Source: Acidobacteriota bacterium
GTDB lineage: Bacteria > Acidobacteriota > Thermoanaerobaculia > Gp7-AA8
Assembly (NCBI GenBank): GCA_003223695.1
Contig: QHVY01000144.1
Span: forward strand, 1-29,703
Reading direction: 5' to 3'
Length of the DNA: 29,703 nucleotides
Shown here piece by piece: positions 16,759-18,719 of the stretch; the first letter of the stretch is position 1; every line of letters starts with the position of its first letter. The translations under genes and the position numbers were made by a program. Under the pieces are notes generated by a model that saw nothing but the letters and a program-made list of their open reading frames with translations, was not told the DNA's origin and ran no database searches.

Positions 16759-17534
16759 ACAATGCTGGAGCGCTGTTAGCCGACACCGCGCGTCGCGGGG
16801 AGCTGCATCATGCGGTGATTCTGCATGGACCGTCAGCCGAGGCGTTGCGCGACGCGGCGATTCGAATCGCCAAAGCGCTGAATTGTCTGAATCGAACGAG
16901 CGGCGACGATTGCCTCGCATGTCAGCGGATCGAGCGGCGCATTCATCCGGACGTGCACTTCATCGAAGTTGGCAGCGAGCGAAAGCTGATTAGCGTCGAA
17001 CAGATCCGCGACATCGTCGCTGCGGCCATCCTGCGGCCATACGAAGGGCGCAACAAAGTCTTCATCATCGATCCTGCGGATGCGCTGAGCGCCGGCGGAT
17101 CGAATTCGCTGTTGAAAACGCTCGAGGAACCGGTCCGCGACACGACGTTCATTCTGCTCACGCGCTCGCCCGACTTGCTGCTGCCGACGATCCGCTCGCG
17201 GTCGCAGGCGATTTACGTCGGAGGAAACGTGCAGCGCGATGAGGAGCTGGCGGCGGATATCGCCGTGCTGCTCGAACAGTTCGCCACGAAAAAAGAATCG
17301 GCGGCGCTGCTCGCGATTGCGGCCGTACTGGCCGGTCAGGAAGACCTCAGCCAGTCGATGGCGCTACTAGCAGAAATTCTGTGCGACGCCGCCGCCGGCC
17401 GTCCGGCGCTTGCCATTCCTCGCGAGCGGCTCCTCGCCGCGGCCGATGCATCGGTATTCAACACGCGATGGCTGATGGTCAACGCGGATGCGCGGATGAT
17501 CGTCGAGCAGGCGCTGCCAGCGCTCATCACCTGA
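16755..17534 (+). CDS. holB: DNA polymerase III delta-prime subunit (short form)
   Basis: Zn-finger cysteines (LNC...CLAC), HPDVH, ISVEQIR, NSLLKTLEEP, LLPTIRSR. ATGA-coupled to tmk, matching conserved tmk-holB synteny. Confidence 0.9.
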   Translation: MNNAGALLADTARRGELHHAVILHGPSAEALRDAAIRIAKALNCLNRTSGDDCLACQRIERRIHPDVHFIEVGSERKLISVEQIRDIVAAAILRPYEGRNKVFIIDPADALSAGGSNSLLKTLEEPVRDTTFILLTRSPDLLLPTIRSRSQAIYVGGNVQRDEELAADIAVLLEQFATKKESAALLAIAAVLAGQEDLSQSMALLAEILCDAAAGRPALAIPRERLLAAADASVFNTRWLMVNADARMIVEQALPALIT

Positions 17535-17535
17535 C

Positions 17536-17627
17536 GAAATTTCAAATGAAAAATGAAAAATGAAAAATGAAAAATCGTCGCTATGCCGGCTTTCATTTTT
17601 CATTCTTAATTCGAAATTCGAAATTTC
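17536..17627. repeat. Heptamer-arm hairpin H3a (AAAATGA / TTTCATT / CGAAATT units)
   Basis: Tandem 7-mers in inverted arms directly after the holB stop. Confidence 0.9.
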
Positions 17628-17727
17628 GCTTTTGAGATTCCGCCACTGGCGAAATGCGATGGCTGATGGTCAACGCGGATGCGCGGATGATCGTCGAGCA
17701 GGCGCTCGCAGCGCTGATCACCTGACG

Positions 17728-17831
17728 GAATTTCAAATTTCAAATTTCAAATGAAAAATAAAAAATAAAAAACGTGGTTCCGCCGGCTTTCATTTTTCAT
17801 GCTTAATTCTTAATTCGAAATTCGAAATTTC
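17728..17831. repeat. Heptamer-arm hairpin H3b (variant copy of H3a)
   Basis: Same architecture as H3a with different unit counts (three AATTTCA units, an extra CTTAATT). Confidence 0.9.
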
Positions 17832-17855
17832 GCTTTTGAGATTGCGGCACTGGCG

Positions 17856-17892
17856 AAAAAAATTTGCCCCGTCCCGCTTGGCGGGACGGGGC
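17856..17892 (-). terminator. Intrinsic terminator for a minus-strand transcript
   Basis: 12-bp perfect GC stem gccccgtcccgc/gcgggacggggc with a 3-nt loop. A run of seven A on the + strand (17856-17862) gives the U-tract on the minus strand. Confidence 0.8.
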
Positions 17893-18042
17893 GGGGGTTA
17901 CTTACTGGATGTGCGTGGCGCGAACGCTCAGGGGTGAGTCAACAGATCGGTAAGGTTCAAAGAAGACTTCAAGAGGTACAACTTTGAGGCAGGCTCAGTA
18001 CAACAGGAAGCAGATTCTCGCCTGCCCATCCAGTAATTCCTC
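17893..18042 (-). ncRNA. Candidate structured small RNA of about 150 nt, family unassigned (a 33-aa small ORF is the alternative)
   Basis: ttactggatg (17902-17911) pairs with catccagtaa (18027-18036). The pairing continues inward through further helices and internal loops. It is flanked by an AT-rich promoter-like region and a terminator, and no ORF-track ORF covers it. Confidence 0.4.
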
Positions 18043-18055
18043 AATGGTCAATACG

Positions 18056-18091
18056 GAGAAATTATCGCACACTTTGTGAAAAATTTCTCAA
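18056..18091 (-). promoter_or_regulatory. Putative sigma70-type promoter overlapped by an imperfect palindrome
   Basis: The minus strand reads TTGAGA-19 nt-GATAAT with an extended -10 TG; the spacing is longer than ideal. The palindrome is GAGAAATT..CACA-ctt-TGTG..AATTTCTC at 18056-18089. Confidence 0.4.
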
Positions 18092-18191
18092 TGTAACAGC
18101 AACGTGACAACAACTTATATTTCAATAAGATAACGCACAAATTCGGAAGCAACTGCAGACTACTACAGAACACTTGTTCGGTCAACCAGAT

Positions 18192-18719
18192 TCAGCGGAC
18201 GACCATCGACGGCACCGGGGTCAGCGCTCTACTTAGACTCACATGACCGGCCAAAGTTTCAGCCGGCTCTCCGTTGACGAGCACTCGCACACGTTTGGCC
18301 TCGACAAAATTCGCCGTAACTGTCTGCACCCCCGAGTAGATCGCCATCAACTCCTGATGGCTCCCTGTTGTCCAACCCTGGGTCAGCGTCGGTCCGCCGA
18401 GATCGACGAAGGCCGTGCCCTCGGGCAGGAGGTACGCCCCGCGAATTGTCGTATCGGCCGGAAGCAGCCGTGGAACGGCAGCGTTCGCCGAGCCCTTCAG
18501 CAGCTCGCGCATGACGAGGTCGAGCGCGGCGGCGGGATTCTGGGGAAGCGGCAGATTGCGACGTTCCGGTGCGAGTAACAGATCGGGCGATTCGTAGTAG
18601 AGCGACACCGTGCGCATCGCCACTTTGTTCTCGACGTTGAGATTGCGCGAAAGCGGCTGTTGCCGGCGGCAAGACGTTGTCAGGAGAAGCAGAGTGACAA
18701 ACGCAAAGCGGCGAATCAC
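18192..18719 (-). CDS. GerMN-domain lipoprotein
   Basis: Lipobox-like LLLTTSC, ELLKGS, AFVDL, ELMAIYSGVQTVTANF and VRVLVNGEPAETLAGH; downstream of an amidase, a common pairing. Confidence 0.85.
   Translation of the reverse strand: MIRRFAFVTLLLLTTSCRRQQPLSRNLNVENKVAMRTVSLYYESPDLLLAPERRNLPLPQNPAAALDLVMRELLKGSANAAVPRLLPADTTIRGAYLLPEGTAFVDLGGPTLTQGWTTGSHQELMAIYSGVQTVTANFVEAKRVRVLVNGEPAETLAGHVSLSRALTPVPSMVVR

What the first reader, a model, noticed from the sequence alone, without database searches (positions are those of the whole stretch)
17856..18091. Stand-alone small transcription unit: candidate structured sRNA or micro-ORF
Seen: an AT-rich stretch with a promoter-like element, a perfect 10-bp closing helix extended by further pairing (ggcg/cgcc, gaa/ttc, gct/agc, tgagcc/gactca, tcaaag/ctttga), and a minus-strand terminator. 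The same strand holds GAGGA-8 nt-ATG opening a 33-aa ORF (18029..17928, MGRRESASCCTEPASKLYLLKSSLNLTDLLTHP) whose start codon lies in the closing helix. CUGAGCC and UUGAACC recall E. coli 6S RNA, but my hand fold gives too short an apical stem for 6S, and several G-U pairs fit the + strand better. Inference: an unassigned sRNA, a divergent 6S, or a structure-repressed small protein.
Basis: partly seen in the sequence, partly recalled or inferred. Interest (0 to 1): 0.65.

Follow-up and report, generated by a model that had tools for sequence, protein, structure and literature searches.

The report
Redox-regulated small RNA gene, Acidobacteria
This is a real, conserved gene for a roughly 200-nt non-coding RNA in one family of uncultured soil Acidobacteria; it has no Rfam family, is neither 6S RNA nor a small-protein gene, and its promoter carries the same NADH-sensor (Rex) operator as the complex I operon.

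Summary
They belong to a stand-alone RNA gene on the minus strand, about 18054..17857.

- **Gene parts:** it has its own sigma-70 type promoter, a 10-bp closing helix, a second helix with one covarying pair, invariant C/U-rich blocks predicted to be unpaired, and an intrinsic terminator.
- **Distribution:** it is single copy and always lies between an amidase-GerMN operon and a convergent holB. I found it in 28 of 35 genomes of one GTDB family of Thermoanaerobaculia and in 0 of 115 genomes of 16 other families. A pattern scan recovered 87 distinct copies.
- **Not 6S:** no Rfam family matches. A canonical 6S RNA lies elsewhere in the same genome.
- **Not a small-protein gene:** the 33-aa ORF is not conserved.
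- **New result, the promoter:** an 18-bp palindrome overlaps the promoter and matches the Rex operator consensus with one mismatch in 81 of 83 homologs. The only other site of that quality in this genome lies upstream of nuoB-nuoCD, and the genome encodes Rex.

I read it as a Rex-repressed trans-acting sRNA, a functional analogue of RoxS/RsaE but not a homologue. Targets, transcription and Rex binding are untested. A second upstream promoter carries a LexA-box-like operator that I could not assign.

The parts
18157..18185 (-). Distal promoter P1. The -35 TTGACC is at 18185..18180, a 17-nt spacer follows, and the -10 TAGTCT is at 18162..18157. An 18-bp palindromic operator (half-sites around GAAC-N4-GTTC) at 18165-18182 fills the spacer.
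   Evidence: The sequence was read. Conservation of the -35, the operator and a TAnnnT -10 is seen. The operator is present at this place in 77 of 83 homologs. It is the only match with at most 1 mismatch in the genome.
18092..18110 (-). Conserved inverted repeat TGTCAC-N6-GTTACA directly upstream of the Rex-like box. The factor that binds it is unknown.
   Evidence: It is nearly invariant in homologs and unique in the genome.
18074..18091 (.). Rex-operator-like palindrome with 1 mismatch to TTGTGAA-N4-TTCACAA. It overlaps the -35 and spacer region of promoter P2.
   Evidence: It is the best match in the genome, one of only 2 sites with at most 1 mismatch against 0.15 expected. It is kept with 1 mismatch in 81 of 83 homologs. 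The other site lies upstream of nuoB-nuoCD.
18061..18069 (-). Proximal promoter P2, an extended -10 element: TG at 18069..18068 and GATAAT at 18066..18061.
   Evidence: A TAnnnT-type hexamer is kept in all homologs, 7-10 nt after the box in 72 and 16-18 nt after it in 11.
17857..18054 (-). Predicted primary sRNA transcript from P2, about 198 nt. The 5' end is inferred from the -10 position. A longer form of about 295 nt would start at P1.
   Evidence: The covariance model hit at 17902-18037 scores 130.8 bits on the minus strand against 20 bits on the plus strand.
18027..18036 (-). Helix P1, 5' strand (TTACTGGATG).
   Evidence: The sequence is invariant in 86 homologs. It pairs with 17911..17902, and 98% of cells are paired.
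17902..17911 (-). Helix P1, 3' strand.
   Evidence: U-A changes to U-G in 32 of 86 sequences at the terminal pair and in 4 of 86 at pair 10:144. These changes are valid only on the minus strand.
18020..18026 (-). Helix P2, 5' strand (GGCAGGC). It can alternatively pair with the 3'-proximal CGCC (helix P1b).
   Evidence: P2 is 87% paired and has one covarying pair, A-U in 46 sequences and G-C in 24. The alternative P1b is 73.5% paired.
17988..17994 (-). Helix P2, 3' strand (GCCTGCC).
17948..17966 (-). Near-invariant pyrimidine-rich block (CTTCYTTGAAYCTTACCG), predicted single-stranded. It is preceded by a second block, CCTCTTGAA.
   Evidence: Invariant columns are listed. Mean pairing probability over most of the block is 0.1-0.3 across 86 homologs. 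The block is absent from two divergent genera.
17925..17938 (-). C-rich block (CTCACC-CCTGAGCG), predicted unpaired. It is the internal block that is also kept in the most divergent homologs.
   Evidence: Pairing probability is near 0. Related C-rich blocks are retained in G013 and G018.
17856..17892 (-). Intrinsic terminator: a 12-bp G+C-rich stem-loop followed by a U-run.
   Evidence: Found. The stem covaries, with G-C in 11 and A-U in 11 of 24 sequences at one pair. A hairpin plus T-run is present in 73 of 86 homologs by a crude test.
17928..18029 (-). It is not conserved and probably not translated.

Best explanation
The region is a stand-alone gene for a non-coding RNA of about 200 nt on the minus strand.

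**Shown**
- The gene is conserved, single copy and syntenic within one GTDB family of Thermoanaerobaculia (Acidobacteriota).
- It has a conserved sigma-70 type -10 element, an invariant closing helix, a second helix with covariation, and a covarying terminator.
- No conserved ORF exists and no Rfam family matches.
- An 18-bp palindrome overlapping the promoter matches the Rex operator. The same motif sits on the nuoB promoter of this genome and of a relative, and the genome encodes a Rex protein.

**Inferred**
- Rex binds this operator at low NADH/NAD+ and blocks RNA polymerase. When NADH rises, Rex leaves and the RNA is made together with complex I.
- The closing helix clamps the ends and leaves conserved C/U-rich stretches exposed. 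These stretches pair in trans with purine-rich ribosome-binding regions of target mRNAs and retune redox metabolism, as RoxS/RsaE does in Firmicutes.
- A second upstream promoter, with its own unassigned palindromic operator, adds another input and would give a longer isoform.
For: **Gene and strand**
- The terminator is on the minus strand only.
- A -10 hexamer of TAnnnT type is kept in all 83 upstream regions examined.
- Substitutions in P1, P2 and P1b are G-U compatible only on the minus strand.
- The covariance model scores 130.8 bits on the minus strand and 20 bits on the plus strand.

**Conservation**
- DNA matches occur in 24 of 36 same-family genomes.
- A pattern scan of all GTDB species genomes gave 91 loci, 87 of them real and all labelled Thermoanaerobaculia or Acidobacteriota.
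- The covariance model finds it in 28 of 35 genomes of the family and 0 of 115 elsewhere in the class, one copy each.
- Divergent copies in two further genera have the same promoter, P1, P2 and terminator.

**Non-coding**: the ORF length and frame are not conserved.

**Not cis-regulatory**: the next gene, holB, is convergent in three distant loci.

**Rex control**
- The box has 1 mismatch to the consensus in 81 of 83 homologs.
- There are only 2 sites with at most 1 mismatch in the 3.9-Mb genome, against 0.15 in shuffles. The other site is upstream of nuoB-nuoCD, and a 2-mismatch site is upstream of a nuoG-like gene.
- Five relatives have 1-2 such sites each, always including the sRNA promoter. 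The reversed control pattern gave 0. The second site in G004 is upstream of nuoB-nuoC.
- A Rex gene is present.
- The published operator consensus, and a nuo operator that covers the -35, are described in PMC5355995.
- RoxS is Rex-repressed and uses C-rich regions to pair with targets (PMC5419742).

**Accessibility**: the pyrimidine-rich blocks have low predicted pairing probability across 86 homologs.
Against: - There are no expression data, so the transcript and its ends are predictions.
- Rex binding is inferred from motif matches. The core TGTGA-N6-TCACA is shared with CRP/FNR-type sites, so another regulator could bind here.
- The spacing from a TTGAGA -35 to the -10 is 19 nt in this window, which is unusual for sigma-70. 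The nuo promoters have 17 nt.
- No target was found. A scan for extended complementarity to the invariant block gave nothing near start codons, and a duplex scan of start regions gave only generic purine-rich hits.
- About 80 nt are conserved in sequence, which is more than a base-pairing seed needs. This suggests a protein-binding or tertiary-structured RNA.
- The large pyrimidine block is missing in two divergent genera.
- No Hfq match passes the Pfam cut-off (best 26.1 against 27 bits) in this 84%-complete genome.
- Apart from one pair in P2 and the terminator, structural covariation is weak.
Confidence: 0.55

Rival explanations
1. It is a structured RNA that binds a protein or a ligand, not a base-pairing regulator. 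It could be a sequestering RNA, a scaffold, or a trans-acting sensor. Its many invariant nucleotides and two mutually exclusive pairings of the 5' G-rich strand (P2 against P1b) would form a functional fold or a switch. Rex control could still hold.
For: - About 80 near-invariant positions are spread over 136 nt, while the spacers between them are randomised.
- The P1 sequence itself is invariant, not merely paired.
- Both P2 and P1b can form in all clades. One clade carries matched insertions on both strands that lengthen the end-to-end rod.
- No mRNA target was found.
Against: - No partner protein gene is linked to it; its neighbours are an amidase, GerMN and holB.
- There is little covariation beyond P1, P2 and the terminator.
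- The long pyrimidine block is dispensable in two genera.
- The conserved blocks are predicted to be unpaired, which suits pairing in trans.
Confidence: 0.25
2. It is a second, divergent 6S RNA that binds RNA polymerase holoenzyme by mimicking an open promoter.
For: It has a similar length, paired ends, and a possible extended end-to-end rod (P1 plus P1b).
Against: - RF00013 gives no match at E up to 10 over 17400-18300.
- A canonical 6S of 63.7 bits (cut-off 46.4) is on contig C174.
- The conserved core is branched, with a local P2 hairpin that covaries. It is not a rod with a central bubble.
- It carries its own intrinsic terminator.
Confidence: 0.04
3. It is an mRNA for the 33-aa peptide (18029..17928), and the closing helix masks the start codon.
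For: In this window and its genus, GAGGA or AAGGA lies 8 nt before the ATG. The ORF is open for 33 codons.
Against: - ORF length in 87 homologs runs from 3 to 68 aa, and even within the genus it is 8, 19, 29 or 33 aa.
- Only the first 5-6 residues are shared, because they overlap the invariant helix.
- Single-nucleotide indels shift the frame.
- An SD-like motif is present in only 26 of 87.
Confidence: 0.03
4. It is a cis-acting element. It could be a riboswitch or attenuator for a downstream gene, or a 3'-UTR element processed from the amidase-GerMN operon transcript.
For: It has an aptamer-like build, with a closing helix, conserved internal nucleotides and then a terminator. It always lies directly downstream of the GerMN gene on the same strand.
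Against: - There is no gene downstream on its strand. holB converges on it in this window and in two distant loci.
- Two conserved promoters lie between the GerMN gene and the RNA.
Confidence: 0.07

Closest known systems
RoxS / RsaE (Rfam RF01820), the Rex-repressed sRNA of Bacillus and Staphylococcus
   Same: It is a stand-alone sRNA gene with an intrinsic terminator. A Rex operator lies at the promoter. Exposed C-rich stretches are suited to pair with G-rich ribosome-binding sites. The predicted role is in NADH/NAD+ balance (PMC5419742).
   Different: There is no sequence or covariance-model similarity. This RNA is about twice as long and comes from a different phylum. Its ends are clamped by an invariant 10-bp helix, and the conserved blocks are C/U-rich rather than CCCC loops. 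It has a second upstream promoter with another operator. Targets and Rex binding are untested here.
6S RNA (Rfam RF00013)
   Same: It has a similar size, and its 5' and 3' ends pair.
   Different: There is no model match. The genome has its own canonical 6S elsewhere. The core is branched rather than a rod with a central bubble, and a terminator hairpin is part of the unit.
Rex regulon promoters of respiratory operons, such as nuoA1-N1 of Streptomyces avermitilis
   Same: The 18-bp operator consensus is the same and it is placed over the -35 and spacer of the promoter (PMC5355995). In this genome and in G004 the same motif sits on the nuoB promoter.
   Different: Here the controlled product is a non-coding RNA. 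The spacing between box and -10 is 7-10 nt or 16-18 nt, against 5 nt at the nuo promoters.

Membership tests
6S RNA (RF00013) | A match to the family covariance model at or above the gathering score. | tested here: not met
   There was no hit at the gathering threshold and none at E up to 10 over 17400-18300. The model works in this genome, where it finds C174:9256-9456 at 63.7 bits.
6S RNA (RF00013) | A long irregular rod with a large central bubble that mimics an open promoter. | tested here: inconclusive
   The ends pair, and P1 could extend into P1b. However, the covarying helix is a local hairpin, P2, and no central bubble flanked by a terminal stem is conserved.
RsaE/RoxS (RF01820) | A match to the family model, meaning homology. 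| tested here: not met
   There was no Rfam hit of any family over the RNA.
RsaE/RoxS (RF01820) | Exposed C-rich motifs used for pairing with targets. | tested here: inconclusive
   Conserved C-rich and C/U-rich blocks are predicted to be unpaired. No target pairing was demonstrated.
Rex regulon member | An operator matching TTGTGAA-N4-TTCACAA in the promoter region. | tested here: met
   The site at 18074-18091 has 1 mismatch and is the best in the genome. The box is conserved in 81 of 83 homologs. It overlaps the promoter 7 nt upstream of the -10.
Rex regulon member | The genome encodes Rex, and the same motif marks classical Rex targets. | tested here: met
   The PF06971 hit of 59.4 bits lies in a 222-aa frame. 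The motif is upstream of nuoB-nuoCD and of a nuoG-like gene, and upstream of nuoB-nuoC in G004.
Rex regulon member | NADH-sensitive binding of Rex and derepression in vivo. | not testable with these tools
   This needs EMSA or footprinting with and without NADH, plus expression data.
SOS (LexA) regulon member | An operator of the type that also marks lexA, recA and other SOS genes of the same genome. | tested here: not met
   The GAAC-N4-GTTC palindrome in P1 resembles the Gram-positive LexA box. However, no such box lies upstream of lexA or recA here, and the extended 18-bp operator is unique in the genome.
Small-protein gene | An ORF conserved in frame and length, with a ribosome-binding site. 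| tested here: not met
   lengths run from 3 to 68 aa, the frame is lost early, and an SD-like motif is present in 26 of 87.
Riboswitch / transcription attenuator | A gene downstream on the same strand that it could control. | tested here: not met
   holB converges on it in the window and in L036 and L060.

The most novel reading that the evidence does not exclude
The RNA is a new class of structured, trans-acting RNA wired into the Rex regulon. Its roughly 80 invariant nucleotides and the competing P2 and P1b pairings would form a fold or switch that binds a protein or metabolite. Two stacked operators (Rex plus an unknown factor) would make it an integrator of redox state and a second signal in uncultured Acidobacteria.
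Probability: 0.2. Interest if true: 0.7.

Novelty: new member of a known kind. Interest (0 to 1): 0.45.

Why it matters
Almost nothing is known about RNA regulators in Acidobacteria, and I found no paper on sRNAs in Thermoanaerobaculia. This locus gives a well-delimited sRNA family that can be searched with a model, and it comes with a testable regulatory input. If Rex control holds, it would be a second, independently evolved case of an NADH-sensing repressor driving an sRNA alongside respiratory genes. That would suggest the logic seen with RoxS in Firmicutes recurs across phyla. The finding also gives a handle on the Rex regulon of an abundant, uncultured soil lineage. It is still one more lineage-specific sRNA with no known target, so the surprise for a specialist is moderate.

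Tried and rejected
- **Rfam:** the gathering-score search and the E-value search gave nothing over the RNA. The only hits were spurious plant miRNA matches to the neighbouring AT-rich repeats.
- **6S:** rejected.
- **Micro-ORF:** rejected.
- **Riboswitch or attenuator:** rejected on synteny.
- **LexA control of the distal promoter:** not supported.
- **Regulons for the other motifs:** the genome scan for the TGTCAC-N6-GTTACA repeat found only this locus. The 12-bp palindrome that follows the terminator in relatives has no exact copy in this genome, only one 1-mismatch site on another contig (C301).
- **Extra helices:** P1b remains a possible alternative to P2.
- **Column-pair covariation (G-test with APC):** mostly reflected clade structure.
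- **Target search:** the complement of the invariant block, allowing up to 4 mismatches, gave no convincing site. A duplex scan of about 5,600 crude ORF starts returned generic purine-rich regions. I draw no conclusion from these.
- **Hfq:** only sub-threshold Sm-like hits.
- **16S rRNA resemblance:** from memory, a 10-nt stretch of the invariant block resembles a conserved 16S rRNA segment. No 16S copy with it is assembled in this MAG, and the position varies (C or U) among homologs, so I dropped it.

Full report
**Observation.**
- A minus-strand intrinsic terminator has a stem-loop at 17892..17866 and a T-run at 17865..17856.
- A perfect 10-bp helix forms between 18036..18027 and 17911..17902.
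- An AT-rich, promoter-like stretch lies upstream on the minus strand.
- An ATG at 18029 opens a 33-aa ORF.
- Both strands fold better than shuffles, with z = -4.7 for the minus strand and -5.2 for the plus strand. Folding of this one sequence therefore does not decide the strand.

**Conservation and strand.**
- BLAST of the 236 nt against relatives found the element in 24 of 36 genomes of the same GTDB family.
- An IUPAC pattern built from the conserved blocks found 91 loci among all GTDB species genomes. Four are chance hits. The rest carry Thermoanaerobaculia or Acidobacteriota labels, so the window comes from that lineage and not from a Firmicute, despite the GerMN neighbour.
- In the alignments the closing helix is invariant. 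Its only changes are U-A to U-G, in 32 of 86 sequences at the outer pair.
- P2 shows C-G to U-G, and the alternative helix P1b shows G-C to G-U. All of these are legal only if the minus strand is the RNA.
- The terminator stem covaries, G-C in 11 and A-U in 11 of 24 sequences.
- A covariance model built from 86 sequences scores the locus 130.8 bits on the minus strand and 20 bits on the plus strand, and finds one copy in the genome.
- One of the 24 rows of alignment A1 and one of the 86 rows of A2 come from genome G003, which is flagged as unpublished. No claim depends on that row.

**What it is not.**
- No Rfam family matches, either at gathering scores or at E up to 10.
- The genome's 6S RNA is on contig C174 at 63.7 bits.
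- The ORF is not conserved. From the same ATG the open frame in 87 homologs is 3 to 68 aa, and within the genus it is 8 to 33 aa. Only the first residues are shared, because they overlap the invariant helix. Single-base indels follow. An SD-like motif precedes the ATG in 26 of 87.
- It cannot be a riboswitch for a downstream gene. Here and in two distant loci the order is amidase, GerMN, RNA, then convergent holB and tmk.

**Anatomy.**
- The conserved -10 puts the start near 18054, and the U-run ends at 17857. That gives about 198 nt.
- Only two internal helices are robust: P1, and P2 (GGCAGGC with GCCTGCC). P2 has one pair that covaries, A-U in 46 sequences and G-C in 24, across several lineages.
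- The 5' strand of P2 can instead pair with a 3'-proximal CGCC and lengthen P1 into a rod (P1b). One clade has matched insertions on both strands that extend this rod. I cannot decide between the two, and they may alternate.
- The rest consists of near-invariant sequence blocks separated by spacers of free sequence and length.
- The pyrimidine-rich block at 17966..17948 and the C-rich block at 17938..17925 have low predicted pairing probability across 86 homologs.
- Two divergent genera keep the promoter, P1, P2, a C-rich block and the terminator, but replace the long pyrimidine block with hairpins.

**Promoter and the Rex link.**
- Upstream conservation is as strong as in the RNA itself.
- A TAnnnT hexamer is always present (GATAAT here, with TG two bases upstream).
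- Seven to ten bases before it, or 16-18 in a minority with an insertion of about one helical turn, lies an 18-bp palindrome. It differs from the published Rex operator consensus at one position in 81 of 83 homologs and at two positions in the other 2 (consensus in PMC5355995).
- This 3.9-Mb, 60% G+C genome has only two sites with at most one mismatch, where local-composition shuffles give 0.15. One is this promoter. The other sits over the -35 and spacer of a promoter upstream of nuoB-nuoCD. A two-mismatch site lies about 30 nt upstream of a nuoG-like gene.
- Five relatives have one or two such sites each, always including the sRNA promoter, and the reversed control pattern gives none. In G004 the second site is upstream of nuoB-nuoC.
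- The genome encodes a Rex protein.
- Rex repression of nuo, with an operator covering the -35, is documented in Streptomyces (PMC5355995).
- I therefore infer that Rex represses this RNA and that rising NADH induces it. Binding itself is not shown. The motif core is shared with CRP/FNR-type sites, so another regulator is possible.

**Second promoter.**
- About 95 nt further upstream there is a conserved TTGACC, a 17-nt spacer and a TAnnnT hexamer. The spacer is filled by a palindrome built on GAAC-N4-GTTC (18157-18185). The palindrome is present in 77 of 83 homologs.
- It looks like a Gram-positive LexA box. However, the lexA and recA promoters of this genome have no such box, and the extended operator is unique in the genome. 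I leave it unassigned.
- A further inverted repeat at 18092-18110 is also unique to this locus.

**Distribution.** The model finds the RNA in 28 of 35 sampled genomes of the family and in none of 115 genomes from 16 other families of the class, always as a single copy. Weaker, divergent copies exist in at least two of the genera that scored negative.

**Mechanism and rivals.**
- My best reading (0.55) is a Rex-gated, trans-acting sRNA. P1 clamps the ends, exposed C/U-rich blocks pair with purine-rich ribosome-binding regions, and the terminator hairpin gives stability.
- That the gene is real I put near 0.9. Rex control I put near 0.65, and base pairing as the mode of action near 0.4.
- The main rival (0.25) is a protein-binding or ligand-binding structured RNA. 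The amount of invariant sequence and the P2/P1b alternative favour it.
- The remaining rivals are a second 6S (0.04), a peptide mRNA (0.03) and a cis element (0.07).
- Target scans were uninformative.

**Comparison and novelty.**
- Functionally the nearest known system is RoxS/RsaE, which Rex represses and which acts through C-rich regions (PMC5419742). There is no homology to it, and the size, architecture and phylum all differ.
- A full-text search found no work on sRNAs in this class.
- I class it as a new member of a known kind: a lineage-specific bacterial sRNA with a redox-sensing input.

Noticed in passing
G000 contig C174:9256-9456 (minus strand), locus L002: The genome's canonical 6S RNA. 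It scores 63.7 bits against RF00013, over the 46.4-bit cut-off.
   Followed up: partly
G000 contig C50:8538-8555 (locus L126:2539-2556) and C377:725-742 (locus L127): Rex-operator-like palindromes on the promoter of nuoB-nuoCD and about 30 nt upstream of a nuoG-like gene. They outline a Rex regulon of respiratory genes in this lineage. The nuoB promoter has the box, then 5 nt, then TAGAAT.
   Followed up: partly
window 17500-17850: Directly downstream of the terminator there is a tandem duplication of about 190 bp. It includes the 3' end of holB and long AT-rich hairpins built of 7-nt repeats. These hairpins cause the spurious plant-miRNA hits in the Rfam E-value scan. Other first-stage notes already cover this region.
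   Followed up: no
loci L010, L015, L020, L032 and many others, 0-5 nt after the terminator U-run: A 12-bp palindrome, GTAACCGGTTAC, follows the sRNA terminator in many genera. It is absent from this window's genus and has no exact copy in this genome, only one 1-mismatch site on contig C301. Its function is unknown, and no gene lies downstream of it on that strand.
   Followed up: partly
window 18157-18185 and 18092-18110: Two conserved palindromic elements upstream of the sRNA are unique in the genome. One is a LexA-box-like operator inside a second promoter, and the other is a TGTCAC-N6-GTTACA repeat. The factors that bind them are unknown.
   Followed up: partly
loci L153:1420-1680 (G013) and L154:1420-1680 (G018): Divergent homologs of the sRNA keep the Rex-like box, P1, P2, a C-rich block and the terminator. 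They replace the long pyrimidine block with hairpins. They are useful for defining the minimal conserved core.
   Followed up: partly
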